Origin: Pseudomonadota bacterium
Lineage (GTDB): Bacteria > Pseudomonadota > Alphaproteobacteria > Sphingomonadales > Sphingomonadaceae
Reading direction: 5' to 3'
DNA length: 45,091 nucleotides
Assembly (NCBI GenBank): GCA_041179365.1
Contig: JBEGTP010000132.1
Location: 1-45,091, forward strand
Made by a program: the position numbers and the translations under genes. This document shows positions 8,999-25,180 of the stretch, in pieces. Positions within the stretch are counted from its first letter, which is position 1; each line of letters starts with the position of its first letter. Below the pieces are notes generated by a model. That model had not been told where the DNA came from and searched no databases. It saw only the letters and a list, made by a program, of their open reading frames with translations.

Positions 8999-9166
8999 CC
9001 CATAATTGATGGCGCTGCGGCGCCGGTCGGCGGCGCTCCAATTGGGCGCACGTTCTCCTTGAACTATAGGATTTATTTTGCTTTTCAGAGCGGGCTCTTT
9101 CTCAGTTTTGAATATCGACCAGCCCGCGCGCCGTTAAGGCTTGATGACGTTAGGTTGCCTATACAC

Positions 9167-9247
9167 CGTCATTGCGGGCGAAGCGCGGCAATCCAGATCT
9201 CGAGCGCGGAACCGGATTGCCGCGTCGCTCCGCTCCCCGCAATGGCG
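9167..9247. repeat. CGTC-type REP-like palindromic element
   Basis: CGTCATTGCGGGCGAAGCGCGGCAATCCAG...CCGGATTGCCGCGTCGCTCCGCTCCCCGCAATGGCG. The arms are complementary and resemble the widespread alphaproteobacterial GTCATTGCGAGCGAAGCGAAGCAATCC...GGATTGCTTCG...CTCGCAATGAC repeat. Confidence 0.8.
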
Positions 9248-9374
9248 ATCCAACTGAACGCCATCGAGGGCTAAAGGTTGAGGCTCTGGGCAAAAGAGAC
9301 ATTTTCTTTTTTACCTATAGAGTCGCGTCTCTTTCGTCTCTTTCGACGCGTGTGTGCAGCTTTTGTCGCGCGGT

Positions 9375-10223
9375 CTAATTGAAATAGGCAACACCGCGAA
9401 ACTCCATCGAGCGGCGGATATTCGCATCCAGACGGTCCTTGTCATGAAAGGCGGTATGCGGCGCGCGCCAGGTCCGGCTGTGATCGCTATCATGAAATTT
9501 GATGAAGATGACTTCATCGGCGGTCATATCGGGGAAATACCACCAGCGATGATCCGGCGAGTGGTGAAAGATCGTGGCCGCAACCATCTCTTCTTCACCC
9601 GCTATTGGTGCGAAGAGCGCATCACCCGTTGGCAATTCATCGACATCGACCTTGGTATTATGTGTGCCTTCATCATCGCGCACGCTCCGGCCATCACACA
9701 AGGCGAGCGGCCAGTTTTGCGGGGCAGGTGACAAGGCGCGCCACAGTGAAAAGCAGATGAAGCGGCTGTACCCGGGCCCGCCGGGCGCGCCAATCGCATA
9801 CATGCGGTCCGCCACCATTTTTGCGGATTTCGTCGTGAAATCAACATGCGCTTCGCCCGCTGGCGGTTGCATGGTCTCGCTCGTGATGCCCGATGTGCGG
9901 ATCATCCCGCCCATGGGGATGACGAGATCGCACCCGCACATCGCCTTCACGACCGCTTCCACTTCGGCGGCATAGGCGCTCTGCGGGCCATAATTGGATT
10001 CCCAATCGGTGATCGCGCTGTGGTGGTGCGCCAGCGCGAAGCCCTGCTCATCAAGGGTGAAAGGCGCAGTCGCCAACCGGGCATTGCGAATTGTGACGTC
10101 ATAGGGCGCGTATGTGCCGGTGTTGCATTCAGCGCCGGGAGCCCAAAAGCGGCGATTGACCCGCGAAGTTGGCAGCAAATAGGTGATTTGGGTTGCTATG
10201 GCGGCTGATGGCACGCTTGTCAT
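9375..10223 (-). CDS. CmcJ/NvfI (AsaB-like) family Fe(II)/2-oxoglutarate oxygenase
   Basis: FTLDEQGF, AHVDFT (HxD), SLWRAL, WPLALCDGRSV, HRWWYFPDMTADEV..IKFHDS, APHTAF (distal His), RRSMEFR. Confidence 0.85.
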   Translation of the reverse strand: MTSVPSAAIATQITYLLPTSRVNRRFWAPGAECNTGTYAPYDVTIRNARLATAPFTLDEQGFALAHHHSAITDWESNYGPQSAYAAEVEAVVKAMCGCDLVIPMGGMIRTSGITSETMQPPAGEAHVDFTTKSAKMVADRMYAIGAPGGPGYSRFICFSLWRALSPAPQNWPLALCDGRSVRDDEGTHNTKVDVDELPTGDALFAPIAGEEEMVAATIFHHSPDHRWWYFPDMTADEVIFIKFHDSDHSRTWRAPHTAFHDKDRLDANIRRSMEFRGVAYFN

Positions 10224-11122
10224 GTCAGGTCTCCTATCTCGATCATCGCGCCTGCCGCCGCCGCGCGGTTGGCGTCGCGTCGCAACCGTTCAATTTCGGC
10301 GCGCCCGGCAGGAATGGGTTCAACGGGAAGTGCAGCCATCGTATCGCGGTAAATCGCTTCAATATCGTCAGCATGGTCAGGGTGGGTCAGAATAAGACCG
10401 CTATTCGCTGTCATGCCCGCGAGCGTTTTTTCGCCAACTTCAAGAGGGTCCATGCCGAGGTCAAAGGCCGTGCCAAATTGCTCAAGCGCTGCGCGATCAG
10501 GCGCTGCAAAGCCCGAATCTGCAAACGCATCCGGACGCTTGAGCGCTGAATCCCAAGCGTTGGTTCTTGTGAGGCCAGGGCACATGAGCGAGACGCCAAT
10601 ATGATAGGGCGCTAGGTTGTAGCGCAGGCATTCCGTGAGCCCGCGTACCGCGAATTTGCTCGCGGTATAAATCCCCGCCTGCGGACCTGAACAAAACGCA
10701 GCCATGCTCGCGACGTTGACGATATGCCCGCCTTCGCCGTGCGCCTTCATACCGGGCATAAACGACACGCAGCCATTGACGACGCCGCCGTAATTCACCC
10801 CCATGATCCAATCATGATCATCATAAGAGGCCTCGTCGGTCGGCCCGAAAACACTGACGCCTGCATTGTTGACGAGGACATGGACTTTGCCCACCTCAGC
10901 GGCAACCTCAGCCCAGCGAGCACGGTCTGTGACATCGAGCTTTACAAAGCGGGGCTGCGCCCGGCCTTGCGCGTCAAACCAGTGCGCGGCCTCAGCCCGG
11001 TGCGCCTCATTGCGGTAGGCGAGGATCAGCGCCATCCCCGCATTGCTAAAAGCACGCGCGATCCCAAAGCCGATGCCTGATACGCCGCCGGTGATGAAGG
11101 CGGTTTTGCCGTGCCAGTTCAT
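10220..11122 (-). CDS. Short-chain dehydrogenase, LigD/LigO (C-alpha dehydrogenase)-like
   Basis: TGGVSGIG, NNAG, S...YTASK catalytic motif. AGVSVFGP...YDDHDWIMGVNYGGVVNG, GGHIV and IGVSLMCPG closely recall sphingomonad LigD/LigO. ATGA overlap with the oxygenase. Confidence 0.85.
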   Translation of the reverse strand: MNWHGKTAFITGGVSGIGFGIARAFSNAGMALILAYRNEAHRAEAAHWFDAQGRAQPRFVKLDVTDRARWAEVAAEVGKVHVLVNNAGVSVFGPTDEASYDDHDWIMGVNYGGVVNGCVSFMPGMKAHGEGGHIVNVASMAAFCSGPQAGIYTASKFAVRGLTECLRYNLAPYHIGVSLMCPGLTRTNAWDSALKRPDAFADSGFAAPDRAALEQFGTAFDLGMDPLEVGEKTLAGMTANSGLILTHPDHADDIEAIYRDTMAALPVEPIPAGRAEIERLRRDANRAAAAGAMIEIGDLT

Positions 11123-11132
11123 TTGTGTTTCC

Positions 11133-12719
11133 TCATTCTAAAGGCTTGCCAGCCGTTTCGGGCAAACCGAACAGCGCGATCGTCGCCGCAATCACGACCA
11201 TCGCAACCGGATACCAAAAACCCGCAAAGGGATTGCCCGTGGTGGCGACGATATATTGCACGATGAACGGCATGAACCCTGCGAAATAGCCAACCCCGAA
11301 ATTATAGGAAATGGCGAGCGATGAGTAGCGGGTGCGCGCCGGGAAAAGTTCGACCATCCACGCACCAACCGGACCGTAAGTCAAAGCGCCAAACAGATTC
11401 AGCAAAACGATGCCGAGGCCAATCAGCAGCAATGCGCGAGTGGCGGGCTTGACTGGATCGGTGGAATAGCCTGCTGCCTCGAGCTGCGCCGCAAGCCCTT
11501 CTGCATCCGCAGCATTGGCAGCGTATCCGCCAATCGTCAGCGAGGGCGCAGCCGCAGCCGCGCCATCCACCCTCGCGTAGGGAACACCCTTTTTGGTCAG
11601 CGTATCGAGCAGGCGCGCGCAAGCCGAAGACTGGCCGGATTGCGCGAACGGGTTAAAATGGCAGTCCGCGCCGGTGACGACCACAGGCTTGTCACGCGAC
11701 GCCTTGGCCAATGCTGGGTTGGCCTGTGCCGCCAGCATATGGAATACGGGAAAAACCAGCAACAGAAACAGCCCATAGCCGAGCAGAACCAGCCTTTTGC
11801 GCCCCACCTTATCGGACAGCCAGCCGCACAACATCGACAATGCTGCCCCGATCGTCAGGGCAATGATCATCACAAAGCGGGTTAGATTGGGGTCAAGATG
11901 CTGCGACACTTGCAGGAAATTGAGCACTTGGATGAGGCCGACATAACCACAAATCGCCTGGCCCGCCGCGATTCCGAACATCACGGCCAGCAGGCGTTTG
12001 ACGCGCGGCATCGACGAAAAGGCCTCCTTCAGAGGATTGCGCGCAATCTCACCAGCTTCCTTCATTGCTAGGAAAACAGGGCTTTCTGAAAGCTTGAGCC
12101 GCATCCAGACTGAGATGGCCAGCAGCACAAGGGACAGGAAGAACGGGACGCGCCAACCCCACGCCAGCCACGCCTCTTCGCCCATTATAGTACTGGTCGA
12201 CAGCACCGCGAGCAGACTGAGCATGAAACCAGTCGAGGCGCCGAGCTGGATGAAGCCGGTATAAAAGCCGCGCTTTTCGGGTGGCGCATGTTCGGCAACA
12301 TAAATGGTCGCGCCACCATATTCCCCACCAACTGCCAGTCCCTGCAACACGCGCAACAAAACCAGCAAGATGGGGGCAGCGATGCCGATCTGCTCAAAAG
12401 TGCCAAGAAGACCGATGGCCATCGTCGCAAAGCCCATCAGCAAAATGGTCGCAAGGAAAGTATATTTCCGCCCAAACCGATCGCCGAACGCCCCAAACAG
12501 TGCAGCGCCGAGCGGCCTGACGGCAAAGCCAACGCCAAAAGTTGCGAGCGCCAGTAGAAAGCCCGAAGCCGGGCTCGAGCCGGGAAAGAACAGCTTGCCG
12601 AACAGCGGTGCGAGCGTGGCATAAATATAAAAATCATACCATTCGAACGCCGTGCCCATTGATGACGCCGCAATCAGCGTTCGGATTTCCTTTGGGCTTG
12701 GGTGCTGTCCAGCATTCAT
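11133..12719 (-). CDS. MFS transporter, metabolite:H+ symporter (MHS) family
   Basis: GTAFEWYDF, GDRFGRK, LQGLAVGGEYGGA, WGWRVPF, ELFPARTRYS; periplasmic insert with two Cys. Confidence 0.92.
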   Translation of the reverse strand: MNAGQHPSPKEIRTLIAASSMGTAFEWYDFYIYATLAPLFGKLFFPGSSPASGFLLALATFGVGFAVRPLGAALFGAFGDRFGRKYTFLATILLMGFATMAIGLLGTFEQIGIAAPILLVLLRVLQGLAVGGEYGGATIYVAEHAPPEKRGFYTGFIQLGASTGFMLSLLAVLSTSTIMGEEAWLAWGWRVPFFLSLVLLAISVWMRLKLSESPVFLAMKEAGEIARNPLKEAFSSMPRVKRLLAVMFGIAAGQAICGYVGLIQVLNFLQVSQHLDPNLTRFVMIIALTIGAALSMLCGWLSDKVGRKRLVLLGYGLFLLLVFPVFHMLAAQANPALAKASRDKPVVVTGADCHFNPFAQSGQSSACARLLDTLTKKGVPYARVDGAAAAAPSLTIGGYAANAADAEGLAAQLEAAGYSTDPVKPATRALLLIGLGIVLLNLFGALTYGPVGAWMVELFPARTRYSSLAISYNFGVGYFAGFMPFIVQYIVATTGNPFAGFWYPVAMVVIAATIALFGLPETAGKPLE

Positions 12720-12740
12720 CCGTCATCCCCCTATTGCCGA

Positions 12741-12778
12741 TTGCCATCAACCTTATCGATTGTTAGCTTTACATACAA
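12741..12778 (+). promoter_or_regulatory. Putative sigma70 promoter with overlapping palindromic operator
   Basis: TTGCCA(12741)-N17-TAGCTT(12764). Imperfect inverted repeat TTGTTAG-CTTTA-CATACAA (12760-12778) covers the -10, inside a 76-bp divergent gap. Confidence 0.55.
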
Positions 12779-12795
12779 ATATGGGAGAGTCGATC

Positions 12796-13482
12796 ATGAG
12801 CGATGTTGAAACGCGACTGGCAGCACTGGAGCAGCAGGTTGGAACGCTAGAGGATGTCAACGCCATCCGTCGCCTGCATTGGGCTTACGGCTATTACATC
12901 GATTTCAACCGCGCGCGTGATGTGTCGGAGCTGTTTGCCGAGGACGGGGAGGTGATCTTCCTCTCTGGCATCTACAAGGGCCGAGCGGGCGCATTTCGCC
13001 TCTACGGCACTTGGTTCCAGAATCTGTTCCTCGAACATGGCGGGGAGGGGCCCGTCGACGGCTTCCTGCTCGATCACTTCCAAATGCAGGACATCATCAC
13101 AGTCGCGCCGGATCGTCAGACCGCAAAGGGCAGATTCCGGGGCATGCTGTTCGGCGGCACACATGAGACCAACAAATGGGCACCGGAAGGCGTGCCGCAG
13201 CAGTTCATGGAGGCGGGCATTTATGAGAATGATTATGTCCGTGAGGACGGCGTCTGGAAGATCAAGCGGCTCGACTATATGATGCAGTGGCAGGGGGACT
13301 ATGAAACCGGTTGGTCAAAAACGATCAGCCATCTCCAGCCCGCAATGGAATGCTTTCCCGCCAACCCGATTGGCCCCGATGAAATTCGCAGCGAGGAAAA
13401 TTACCGCCAAACCTGGCCGCACCGGCAGGATGTGCCGATGCATTATGCGCACCCGAAATTCGGGGCGGTTTTGGCGAAATGA
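12796..13482 (+). CDS. NTF2/SnoaL-like protein, LdpA/PcfL (gamma-formaldehyde lyase)-like
   Basis: RL..LE...LED...IRRLHWAYGYYID, LLDHFQMQDII.V.PD..TAKGRF, EAGIYENDYVREDGVWKIKRLDY. ATG at 12796 follows a GGAGAG RBS. The fold call is confident; the specific activity is inferred. Confidence 0.75.
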   Translation: MSDVETRLAALEQQVGTLEDVNAIRRLHWAYGYYIDFNRARDVSELFAEDGEVIFLSGIYKGRAGAFRLYGTWFQNLFLEHGGEGPVDGFLLDHFQMQDIITVAPDRQTAKGRFRGMLFGGTHETNKWAPEGVPQQFMEAGIYENDYVREDGVWKIKRLDYMMQWQGDYETGWSKTISHLQPAMECFPANPIGPDEIRSEENYRQTWPHRQDVPMHYAHPKFGAVLAK

Positions 13483-14603
13483 CCCTTTTTTCAGACGGCA
13501 GCGAAAAAGGCTTGCGCGGCCATGCAGAAGAGCGCGGGGTAAGGGCCCGCATAGGACTGGCTCCGGCGGCGGGCGTTGTGGATCGAGGTGCCCCCTATAA
13601 GCGCATCGCGACCGAGGAAGCCTGGACCTTCCCCGAACTGGTGAAAGCGCAGGTTGACTACATCAATGCCCCCGATGCGCCCGATGACGCCTCGCTAAAG
13701 ATGGCGGGGATGTTTGGATCAATGCCCAAGCTTCAGGGCATGCTTCAGGATATCGGCGCAGGGCGTCTAGCGCATATGGATGAATATGGGATTGACCGAC
13801 AGCTCCTCCTGCTCACCTCGCCCGGTGTCCAAGTCGTCCGCGAATCAGAAGGTACGGCCTTTGCCCGCGAAGCCAATGACCGCGCGGCAGAAAGCTGCCG
13901 TCGCTGGCCCGACCGGTTCTCCGCGCTCGCCGCCTTTGATCCGCGCGATGTCGCCGGGTCCGTCAAGGAAATTGACCGGGCGATGTCGAGCCTCAAGCTC
14001 AACGGTGCCGTCCTCAATTCGCACTTTCAGGGGCGATATATCGACGAGCCAGCCTCTGAACCGATCCTCGAAGCGCTCGAAGCCCATGACGCTGCACTCT
14101 ATATCCACCCCACAGCGCCCTTTATGGCGAAGCGCTATCAGGATCGGGGATTTTACGGCGCGCTTGCGGGCTTTCCGCACGATGTGTGGCTCCATACCAT
14201 GGGGCTCATCTTTTCCGGCGCGTTTGATAAATATCCCAAACTCCGCCTTGTGATCGGGCACATGGGCGAAAATCTGCCGCTCACACTCTACCGCTTTGAT
14301 TGGATGCAATACAATGCAGATGGCATCCCGGGTATGCGCGGCGGCCAGCCAGCGGTGACGCTAAAACATCCGGTCAGTTATTATTTCAAAACCAACATTT
14401 GGATAACGACATCCGGCGTCGGCTGGGAACCTGCGATCAAATTTTGTCAGCAAGTGATGGGACCAGACCGGGTGCTTTACGCAATGGATTATCCCTATCA
14501 GCAGTCTTCCGACGAGTTGGCGGCCTACGACACGATGGATATGCCACCAGAGGTCAAGAAAATGTTGATGCAAACCAACGCAGAGCATGTGTTTAGACTT
14601 TAG
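13479..14603 (+). CDS. Amidohydrolase-fold non-oxidative aromatic acid decarboxylase, LigW-like
   Basis: RIATEEA, LTSPGVQ, NSH.QGRY.DE, LYIHP, GHMGE, SGVGWEPAIKFCQQVMG.DRV.YAMDYPYQ, QTNAE..F.L all match LigW motifs; ATGA overlap with the upstream gene. Confidence 0.88.
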   Translation: MTLFSDGSEKGLRGHAEERGVRARIGLAPAAGVVDRGAPYKRIATEEAWTFPELVKAQVDYINAPDAPDDASLKMAGMFGSMPKLQGMLQDIGAGRLAHMDEYGIDRQLLLLTSPGVQVVRESEGTAFAREANDRAAESCRRWPDRFSALAAFDPRDVAGSVKEIDRAMSSLKLNGAVLNSHFQGRYIDEPASEPILEALEAHDAALYIHPTAPFMAKRYQDRGFYGALAGFPHDVWLHTMGLIFSGAFDKYPKLRLVIGHMGENLPLTLYRFDWMQYNADGIPGMRGGQPAVTLKHPVSYYFKTNIWITTSGVGWEPAIKFCQQVMGPDRVLYAMDYPYQQSSDELAAYDTMDMPPEVKKMLMQTNAEHVFRL

Positions 14604-23899: not shown

Positions 23900-25180
23900 C
23901 TAAGCTGAGGTGAAGCGGATAGGTAAGCGCTTAAGGCCGCCAACAAAAACCGATTCGACGCGCGCGGGTTCGCCCGCGAGTTCGAGAGATTTGAGACGTG
24001 GTAGCAATTCTTCCATCAATATGCGCATTTCCATCCGTGCAAGATGCTGGCCAAGGCAGACATGCCCGCCGTAACCAAAGGCGACCTGGGCGTTGGGGGG
24101 TCGGTCTGGATTAAACACGAAGGGGTCTTCAAACACCGCCTCATCGCGGTTGCCGCTCGCGTAGCAGAGCATCAGCCAGTCGCCCTTGCTGATTCTTTGC
24201 CCGGCAAGCTCGGTATCTTCGGTCGCCGAGCGCATGAAGTGCTGCACTGGAGTCGTCCAGCGGATTGCCTCTTCGATCAACCCGGCCTTATCGGCTTCTG
24301 CCGAGCGGTAGCGTTCGAAAAGCGCGGGGTTTTTCGCAAGTTCCATGATGGCACCCGCCGTAGAGGCTGAGGTGGTATCGTGCCCCGCTGTGGCGATGAT
24401 CATATAATAGCCATTGAGTTCGCGGTCGGCGATGGGCGCACCGTTGACCGTCGCATTGGCTAGGATCGTTGCGATGTCGTCCTTGGGATTTTTTCGGCGA
24501 TCCTCAGTGATGGCTTTAAAATAGGACTCAAAATCCGCGATCACGAATTGGAGCATCTGCAAGCCCGCTTTCACATCGGTGATTTCAGCACGCGCGCGGT
24601 TCAGTTCAGGATCGGTCGGACCAAAGAGCTGCTGCGTGAGCATCAGCATCCGCGGCTCATCCTCGCGTGGCACACCCAGAATATTCATGATCACCCGCAA
24701 CGGATAATCGACCGCAATGTCGCGCGCAAAATCACACTCGCCCTCTTTGGCGAGCATCGCGTCCACCGTTTCGCGCGCAATCTCGCGAATGCGCGCCTCA
24801 ATGCCTCTCAAGTTTTTGGGCATGAACCAGCTCTGCGTCAGCAGGCGGTATTTCATATGATCAGGCGCATCCATTTGAACGAGCGAGCGGATCAGATGCC
24901 CATCATTATTCGGTGTTTGTGTCCGCGCGAGGACATCGATTTCGCGCTGCGTAAGCGTCGCCTGCCGCTCGCCCGACGCATAGAGCTTATTATTGCGGCT
25001 AATTTCGAGAATATCCGCGTGGCGCGTGACAGCCCAAAAGGGGTCAAACTCTTCAGTCTTGGCTAAGCCGAGCGGCATGTTCGCGCGCGCCCAAGAAAAT
25101 TTGTCATGCAAGCCGTCCCATTCGCCATAAGCTTTTGGATTGACGAGCGCGTCTGCAATCTCGGCAGGTAGGGTTTGCAT
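23900..25180 (-). CDS. Cytochrome P450, CYP108-like
   Basis: IATAGHDTT I-helix, EAIR (ExxR), FGYGGHVCLG heme motif; the N-terminus recalls P450terp/CYP108. Confidence 0.92.
   Translation of the reverse strand: MQTLPAEIADALVNPKAYGEWDGLHDKFSWARANMPLGLAKTEEFDPFWAVTRHADILEISRNNKLYASGERQATLTQREIDVLARTQTPNNDGHLIRSLVQMDAPDHMKYRLLTQSWFMPKNLRGIEARIREIARETVDAMLAKEGECDFARDIAVDYPLRVIMNILGVPREDEPRMLMLTQQLFGPTDPELNRARAEITDVKAGLQMLQFVIADFESYFKAITEDRRKNPKDDIATILANATVNGAPIADRELNGYYMIIATAGHDTTSASTAGAIMELAKNPALFERYRSAEADKAGLIEEAIRWTTPVQHFMRSATEDTELAGQRISKGDWLMLCYASGNRDEAVFEDPFVFNPDRPPNAQVAFGYGGHVCLGQHLARMEMRILMEELLPRLKSLELAGEPARVESVFVGGLKRLPIRFTSA

What the first reader, a model, noticed from the sequence alone, without database searches (positions are those of the whole stretch)
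9375..14603. Compact divergent cluster resembling an undescribed lignin-dimer catabolic module
Seen: five genes in two tightly linked arms around a 76-bp divergent gap, placed between glnD and purE. The left arm is MFS > SDR > CmcJ/NvfI oxygenase; the right arm is NTF2 lyase > amidohydrolase. Established: sphingomonads use LigD/L/N/O-type SDRs (C-alpha oxidation), NTF2-fold gamma-formaldehyde lyases (LdpA for beta-1, PcfL for beta-5 dimers) and LigW decarboxylases on lignin-derived aromatics. Three of the enzymes here carry motifs of those families. Inference: the cluster handles uptake and conversion of a lignin- or lignan-type dimer. The combination is unusual because no lignostilbene dioxygenase, the normal partner of LdpA/PcfL, is in the window, while a 2-oxoglutarate oxygenase I cannot place in described lignin pathways is present.
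Basis: partly seen in the sequence, partly recalled or inferred. Interest (0 to 1): 0.88.

Follow-up and report, generated by a model that had tools for sequence, protein, structure and literature searches.

The report
Relocated lignin-dimer module with orphan oxygenase
Two of these five bacterial genes match a known enzyme pair that likely breaks down one type of lignin fragment, their supposedly missing partner enzyme is encoded elsewhere in the genome, and the three extra genes (an iron oxygenase, a decarboxylase and a transporter, all untested) likely widen the range of fragments handled.

Summary
The five genes are real and lie as described. The core is not undescribed. The NTF2 gene is an LdpA ortholog (about 70% identical, all nine active-site residues kept). 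The divergent SDR has the known ldpB position and an NADPH-type motif, so it is likely a reductase, not a C-alpha oxidase. The full five-gene set was in 0 of 160 related loci; it looks like a relocated, trimmed piece of that island. Still open are three accessories: a LigW paralog lacking the Arg58 loop, a generic MHS transporter, and a CmcJ/NvfI Fe/2-oxoglutarate oxygenase. The oxygenase was found only in LdpA-bearing genomes (14 of 15 versus 0 of 36 in the genus; 6 of 28 versus 0 of 273 in the order). It usually follows a third, uncharacterised LdpA/PcfL paralog that is missing from its usual site here. My paper searches found no study of it in lignin catabolism. The scan noted that pairing before on another genome (e1-4089159).

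The parts
9375..10223 (-). CmcJ/NvfI-family Fe(II)/2-oxoglutarate oxygenase, here called clade 'b'; substrate unknown
   Evidence: NF041278 250 bits. H126-x-D128, H256 and R276 invariant in 36 aligned rows. Model pLDDT 88.9 matches NvfI Z 29.8 and CTB9 Z 28.6, next hit Z 9.6.
10220..11122 (-). LdpB-type short-chain dehydrogenase, likely an NADPH-dependent C-alpha ketoreductase
   Evidence: Best PDB hits include C-alpha dehydrogenases. N86-S139-Y152-K156 tetrad; Y36-R37 instead of D-I. Divergent from ldpA in 65 of 80 loci.
11133..12719 (-). MFS transporter of the metabolite:H+ symporter type, inserted between ldpB and its promoter region
   Evidence: TIGR00883 350 bits, below cut-off 443. Same position in 1 of 80 loci (L120, 68%). 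In relative G005 the SDR start lies directly beside ldpA.
12762..12776 (+). 15-bp box GTTAG-N5-CATAC in the divergent gap; resembles the DesR (MarR-type) operators of SYK-6
   Evidence: Exact in 34 and within one mismatch in 44 of 80 ldpA upstream regions. 11 of 15 bases match IR-M and IR-B (compared by hand). A stricter pattern has 6 sites in the genome vs 0-1 in 10 shuffles (pattern chosen after seeing the data).
12796..13482 (+). LdpA ortholog: erythro-diarylpropane gamma-formaldehyde lyase (NTF2 fold)
   Evidence: PDB 8ABT E 6.5e-107, 8ABV E 4.6e-104 (entries deposited by PMC9942872). Y31, D36, Y70, H94, E139, Y143, Y161, Q166, H179 present.
13479..14603 (+). LigW-like metal-dependent aromatic-acid decarboxylase paralog with an altered substrate pocket
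   Evidence: 4INF E 9e-82, vs 4e-169 for the C217 gene. E46, H210, D337, Y340, H261, R272, F232 align with LigW Glu19, His188, Asp314, Tyr317, His241, Arg252, Phe212. A five-residue gap covers the Arg58 position in all 19 clade rows aligned.

Best explanation
This is a relocated, trimmed piece of the sphingomonad lignin/lignan gene island whose core, an LdpA ortholog and a divergent LdpB-type reductase, likely converts beta-1 (diarylpropane) lignin dimers to a stilbene plus formaldehyde, which the NOV2-type dioxygenase on contig C293 would cleave to vanillin-type aldehydes. Inferred order: a LigN/LigO-type dehydrogenase on C217 oxidises the threo dimer to the C-alpha ketone; the SDR reduces it with NADPH to the erythro form; LdpA removes water and formaldehyde through a quinone methide; NOV2 cleaves the stilbene. 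The three accessories likely widen the input (each step inferred, about 0.3-0.4). The LigW paralog would remove an ortho-carboxyl from a 5-carboxylated guaiacyl unit whose para-substituent is not an acid, as left when a beta-5 or 5-5 bond of an oligomer has already been cut. The MHS symporter would import such an anionic substrate. The Fe/2-oxoglutarate oxygenase would hydroxylate an unactivated C-H of a dimer, most likely the benzylic carbon, to give a substrate for the reductase/lyase pair. A MarR-type repressor likely controls both arms through the box in the gap.
For: Shown: LdpA orthology and residues. The window gene falls in the LdpA clade, apart from a PcfL-position clade and a third clade (quick tree; supports 97, 98, 92). 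SDR divergent from ldpA in 65 of 80 loci, matching the published ldpB-ldpA pair. NADPH-type motif: Arg37 in 70 of 72 clade rows. NOV2 equivalog on C293. Other island genes on C97, C156, C25, C281, C172, C292, C217 at 46-97% identity to relatives' copies. On C97 the PQQ dehydrogenase gene abuts DUF3237, where relatives carry the third NTF2 paralog and the oxygenase between them. Oxygenase found only in LdpA-bearing genomes. Close relatives of the decarboxylase (60% or more) sit directly behind ldpA in all 13 of 80 loci that have one.
Against: No enzyme was assayed. The SDR could not be compared with SYK-6 LdpB itself; in N. aromaticivorans the listed ldpB homolog (Saro_0703) is not beside ldpA. 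LdpA plus LsdA suffice for erythro-DGPD in a foreign host and 22 of 28 LdpA genomes in the order sample lack the oxygenase, so it is not part of the core route. Its usual neighbour is the third NTF2 paralog (27 of 55 loci with enough upstream DNA), not ldpB (0 of 160 adjacent), so it may not act with LdpA at all. Transporters have not been implicated for uncharged dimers, and MFS homologs occur in 47 of 50 other genomes of the genus, most without ldpA. Kin are not independent, and co-occurrence may reflect gain and loss of one island.
Confidence: 0.75

Rival explanations
1. The five genes form one dedicated, undescribed pathway for a single special dimer.
For: Tight coupling within both arms and one shared operator-like box. 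Four of the five genes occur together in L050 and L220. The arrangement is present in natural populations.
Against: All five together in 0 of 160 loci, and SDR directly before the oxygenase in 0 of 160. Each accessory has its own distribution. The core already has a described role.
Confidence: 0.1
2. The cluster is a chance collapse of the island. The oxygenase is a leftover of an operon with the lost third NTF2 lyase, and the transporter is a passenger; only ldpA-ldpB (and perhaps the decarboxylase) act together.
For: The third paralog is absent from its syntenic site on C97 and was not found in the genome (best hit 54%, the PcfL-position gene). The MFS is a generic family member.
Against: The oxygenase is intact, keeps every catalytic residue and overlaps the SDR stop codon by 4 bp. 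A 97% identical protein exists in other assemblies. 28 of 55 oxygenase loci have another gene or none of the panel directly upstream, so it often stands without that lyase. The genome is only 85% complete.
Confidence: 0.35
3. The oxygenase acts on the aryl methyl ether rather than the side chain (O-demethylation or opening of a methylenedioxy ring), or desaturates a bibenzyl to a stilbene for the dioxygenase.
For: One of the two closest structures, CTB9, forms a methylenedioxy bridge. The sister clade 'a' sits directly upstream of the NOV2-type dioxygenase in many loci and on C293. That the family includes a gibberellin desaturase is recalled, not checked.
Against: Identity to CTB9 and NvfI is only 22-26%, so the fold gives no substrate. 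A LigM/DesA-like demethylase appears to be on C171 (read from the translation, not scanned).
Confidence: 0.25

Closest known systems
ldpB-ldpA beta-1 dimer module of Sphingobium sp. SYK-6 (SLG_12640/SLG_12650) and LdpA of N. aromaticivorans (PMC9942872; bioRxiv 10.1101/2023.01.24.525472)
   Same: LdpA ortholog with all nine active-site residues; adjacent C-alpha-dehydrogenase-group SDR with an NADPH-type motif; NOV2-type dioxygenase in the genome.
   Different: An MFS gene is inserted between the two; an oxygenase and a LigW paralog are coupled to them; the module sits among housekeeping genes, away from the dioxygenase.
pinUZ-ldpB-ldpA-pinXWV island of N. rhizosphaerae LY (PMC12607616, PMC12997858 Table 1)
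   Same: Related loci show the order dioxygenase, NmrA-type reductase, hydrolase, SDR, LdpA, then FAD oxidase and cytochrome c, in line with the locus-tag order of that table. The genome holds homologs of these on other contigs.
   Different: Here the island is split over several places. The pin gene names for those homologs are assigned by family and order only.
LigW / LigW2 5-carboxyvanillate decarboxylases (PDB 4INF, 4ICM)
   Same: Metal ligands, general acid and stacking tyrosine kept.
   Different: About 41% identical to the genome's own LigW ortholog; the Arg58 loop is deleted; there is a conserved N-terminal extension; it forms its own clade (at least 120 clusters at 74% or more).
NvfI and CTB9 fungal Fe/2-oxoglutarate oxygenases (PDB 7DE2, 7EUS)
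   Same: Fold (TM about 0.7-0.8) and HxD...H...R motif.
   Different: 22-26% identity; fungal biosynthesis versus a predicted bacterial catabolic role; substrate unknown.
pcfL-ferD-ligW beta-5 module (PMC11323797)
   Same: Same lyase and decarboxylase families.
   Different: That module is on C217 of this genome (44% to the window lyase, as published for PcfL vs LdpA); the window is not it.

Membership tests
LdpA | At least 50% identity to characterised LdpA (criterion of Kato et al.) | tested here: met
   About 70% (155 of 222 columns, counted by hand from the printed alignment to 8ABT).
LdpA | His-Asp dyad, Glu-Tyr-Gln triad, phenol-binding tyrosines, His183 equivalent | tested here: met
   All nine present; Q166 and H179 are kept in 72 of 72 LdpA rows and replaced in all 30 rows of the two paralog clades.
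LdpA | Converts erythro-DGPD to lignostilbene and formaldehyde | not testable with these tools
   Needs an assay.
PcfL | Falls in the clade that lies with ferD and ligW | tested here: not met
   The window gene is in the LdpA clade; the PcfL-position gene is on C217. PcfL itself was not in the tree; the clade is named by position.
LdpB | C-alpha-dehydrogenase-group SDR directly upstream of ldpA | tested here: met
   here one gene lies between.
LdpB | NADPH preference | tested here: inconclusive
   Motif only: Y36-R37 vs D-I, read by the general SDR cofactor rule (established knowledge).
LdpB | At least 50% identity to SYK-6 SLG_12640 | not tested
LigD/L/N/O NAD+-dependent C-alpha dehydrogenases | Acidic residue after beta-2 (NAD type) and orthology | tested here: not met
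   Asp replaced by Tyr; about 40% to the LigO/LigN-type genes on C217.
LigW 5-carboxyvanillate decarboxylase | Glu/His/Asp metal ligands, Asp general acid, stacking Tyr | tested here: met
LigW 5-carboxyvanillate decarboxylase | Active-site Arg58; closest homolog of LigW in the genome | tested here: not met
   Arg58 position falls in a gap; C217 gene scores 565 bits vs 278. SYK-6 LigW2 (SLG_12810) was not available for comparison.
CmcJ/NvfI Fe/2-oxoglutarate oxygenases | Family HMM, HxD...H triad, C-terminal Arg, NvfI fold | tested here: met
Aromatic acid:H+ symporters (PcaK type) | AAHS family model | tested here: not met
   TIGR00895 58.6 bits vs cut-off 418; best model is the MHS one, also below its cut-off.
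DesR-type operator | 15-bp inverted repeat like IR-M/IR-B, bound by a MarR repressor | tested here: inconclusive
   Sequence likeness and enrichment only; binding untested.

The most novel reading that the evidence does not exclude
The CmcJ/NvfI clade tied to LdpA-type lyases is an unrecognised Fe/2-oxoglutarate entry step of bacterial lignin/lignan catabolism. It oxidises dimers that lack a C-alpha hydroxyl so that reductase and lyase can form a cleavable stilbene, and the LigW paralog strips the carboxyl left on oligomer fragments. This would extend the known dimer routes to oligomers and reduced dimers, in sphingomonads and in soil Steroidobacteraceae.
Probability: 0.3. Interest if true: 0.7.

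Novelty: new variant of a known kind. Interest (0 to 1): 0.36.

Why it matters
The core adds one more carrier of a known route. The value lies in the accessories. Carbon-carbon-linked dimers and oligomers are the fraction of depolymerised lignin that microbes are still being sought to funnel, and the 2026 review (PMC12997858) expects further pathways among unassigned NTF2 and dioxygenase homologs; its gene table lists no 2-oxoglutarate oxygenase. The oxygenase clade, its partner lyase clade and the LigW paralog are three concrete candidates that can be assayed. Named cultured strains carry both the oxygenase and LdpA (Chakrabartia godavariana PRB40; Novosphingobium sp. RL4).

Tried and rejected
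Absence of a lignostilbene dioxygenase: rejected. The second RPE65-family gene, on C225, is an apocarotenoid dioxygenase. Conserved five-gene operon: rejected (many loci end at contig ends, so single-gene counts are lower bounds). Recent horizontal arrival: no compositional sign, GC3 0.64-0.70 vs 0.57-0.68 in flanking genes. Sigma-70 and terminator scans: at chance level. Expression: no RNA holder listed. Paper searches for CmcJ+NvfI (2 unrelated papers, listing only), 2-oxoglutarate-dependent + lignin-derived + Sphingobium + stilbene (0), CTB9+NvfI+dioxygenase family (0) and ketoglutarate-dependent + lignin + Novosphingobium + formaldehyde lyase (0) found nothing on this oxygenase in lignin catabolism; the library lacks most subscription papers. 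'CmcJ' was absent from the main text and supplements searched of PMC11323797 and PMC12607616. Saro_2810, which I guessed by locus order to be the sister oxygenase, is induced about 4-fold by DC-A with no fitness effect; the guess is unverified and not used as evidence. The strain table in Kato's supplement could not be seen and may bear on the LdpB assignment. The ESM Atlas gave only the family name. The careful NTF2 tree did not finish; the quick one is used. No complex prediction was run.
Full report
Observation. Contigs from four public freshwater or aquatic runs bridge each internal gene junction and the junction to purE, so the order is not an assembly artefact. No single piece spans all of it, and one run may be the source. 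The window is contig C132 of an 85%-complete genome in 351 contigs.

The lyase is LdpA. Its best solved relatives are 8ABT/8ABU/8ABV (E 1e-104 to 1e-107), the LdpA structures of PMC9942872. Identity is about 70% by hand count. The residues that paper lists for the active site are all present. Two of them, Q166 and H179, separate 72 LdpA rows from 27 rows of a third clade and 3 rows of a clade in the pcfL position. A quick maximum-likelihood tree of 117 rows gives these three clades, with the window gene among the LdpA rows. The genome's PcfL-position gene is on C217, between two C-alpha dehydrogenases, an aldehyde dehydrogenase and a gene far closer to LigW (4INF, 565 bits) than the window's amidohydrolase is (278 bits).

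The SDR is most likely LdpB. In the best 80 of 312 LdpA-like loci from genome contigs, 66 hold this SDR at 55% or more and 65 have it head-to-head with ldpA. Kato et al. report ldpB directly upstream of ldpA, the same arrangement in 97 of 113 strains, and strict NADPH use for reducing DGPD-keto II. The window clade has Tyr-Arg after the second strand, where LigO/LigN-type rows have Asp-Ile; by the general SDR rule this means NADP(H). I could not compare it with SLG_12640 directly.

The missing dioxygenase is not missing. Two RPE65-family genes are in the genome. The one on C293 passes the NOV2 equivalog cut-off, and NOV2/LsdA is the described partner of LdpA. It is preceded by a fragment of a second CmcJ-family gene at the contig start. 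The C225 gene is an apocarotenoid dioxygenase. Homologs of nearly all genes that flank ldpA in relatives are spread over C97, C156, C25, C281, C172, C292 and C326.

How the cluster arose (inferred). In relatives the order is amidohydrolase, ldpA, SDR, aldehyde dehydrogenase, several genes, PQQ dehydrogenase, third NTF2 paralog, oxygenase, DUF3237, NmrA-type reductase, dioxygenase (L220, L050, L031). On C97 the PQQ gene abuts DUF3237, and the third paralog has no ortholog-level hit in the genome. In relative G005 the SDR start lies directly beside ldpA. So the window holds genes taken out of that island in their ancestral orientation, with an MFS inserted. The whole set was in 0 of 80 LdpA-centred and 0 of 80 oxygenase-centred loci; four of five were in 1 of those 160 and in L220.

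The oxygenase. It is a sound family member, only 22-26% identical to NvfI and CTB9. It is common: 1898 clusters at E 0.001, the best 120 at 70% or more. It occurred in 14 of 51 genomes of the genus (12 at 64% or more), all among the 15 with LdpA, and in 6 of 301 genomes sampled from the order, all among the 28 with LdpA. These genomes are kin and several are incomplete. Its usual upstream gene is the third NTF2 paralog: 29 of 30 rows of that clade have it within 1 kb, and 27 of 55 oxygenase loci with at least 900 bp upstream show it (25 of 80 loci were dropped for short flanks or a partial hit). A sister clade at about 33% precedes the NOV2-type dioxygenase. Both clades thus sit beside stilbene-forming or stilbene-cleaving enzymes. 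I commit to C-H hydroxylation of a dimer side chain as the likeliest job, at about 0.3-0.4; it is inferred from context only.

The decarboxylase and the transporter. The amidohydrolase keeps the LigW metal ligands and catalytic residues named in PMC8187880 and PMC6031855 (numbering transferred by hand through). It lacks the loop that carries Arg58 in all 19 clade rows aligned (19 of 121 available). That Arg58 binds the para-carboxylate is recalled, not read. Close copies are in 6 of 51 genomes of the genus and directly behind ldpA in 13 of 80 loci. The MFS is of the metabolite:H+ type, with homologs at 44-59% in 47 of 50 other genomes of the genus, so it says little by itself; one Novosphingobium locus has a 68% copy at the same place.

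Regulation. A box GTTAG-N5-CATAC lies in the gap and upstream of ldpA in 34 of 80 loci. It shares 11 of 15 bases with the DesR operators. A stricter version has 6 sites in the genome, 4 of the other 5 upstream of island genes, against 0-1 in shuffles. The pattern was chosen after looking at the data.

Papers seen. PMC9942872: parts 1-3 of 6 and one passage. bioRxiv 2023.01.24.525472: parts 1-4 of 5; supplement not seen. PMC12997858: parts 1-3 of 7. PMC12607616: one section, passages, supplement searched. PMC11323797: passages, supplements searched, first part of file 1. PMC8187880, PMC6031855, PMC6888825, PMC12447483, PMC12223119, PMC9808054: passages only. The gene names LigO, LigL and LigD for PDB 4YA6, 4YAE, 4Y98 and Saro_0793 for 3IOY are recalled.

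Verdict. A known beta-1 module in a new, lineage-limited arrangement with three untested accessories. Interest 0.36. The oxygenase and its partner lyase clade are the part worth bench work.

Noticed in passing
L057:2115-2822, L097:6918-7637 and 28 other rows: A third LdpA/PcfL-like lyase clade keeps the catalytic dyad, Glu and tyrosines but has His and Asp at positions 166 and 179; 29 of 30 rows lie within 1 kb of the oxygenase. Not found in this genome.
   Followed up: partly
L074-L119 (Steroidobacteraceae and other Gammaproteobacteria records): LdpA orthologs at 70-75% with SDR, dioxygenase and both oxygenase clades are common outside Alphaproteobacteria; Kato et al. reported orthologs in 119 alphaproteobacterial strains.
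   Followed up: partly
G000:C293:4-207 and 281-1756: A sister CmcJ-family gene (clade 'a', cut by the contig end) lies directly upstream of the NOV2-type dioxygenase, as in many relatives.
   Followed up: partly
window 9105-9322: A palindromic repeat of about 216 bp between glnD and the oxygenase (fold z -3.4); part of it has copies on 11 other contigs, and contigs of three runs skip it, so it is likely a polymorphic insertion.
   Followed up: partly
G000:C25:3042, C97:14591 and 14781, C156:6347, C64:274; looser matches at C171:7990, C172:1814, C326:4778: DesR-like boxes upstream of TonB receptor, aldehyde dehydrogenase, GST and demethylase-like genes suggest one MarR regulon; a MarR gene lies on C25.
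   Followed up: partly
G000:C217:2700-9267: A ligO-ligN-MFS-pcfL-ferD-ligW-like beta-5 module; the contig ends after ligW, and no LsdD-type dioxygenase was found in the assembly.
   Followed up: partly
window 23900-25180 (-): A cytochrome P450 gene among housekeeping genes.
   Followed up: no
L242 (NZ_CP141945.1:1226873-1255550): A cultured Novosphingobium from rhubarb rhizosphere carries oxygenase, SDR-ldpA, dioxygenase and the pcfL module within 29 kb on a large plasmid record.
   Followed up: partly
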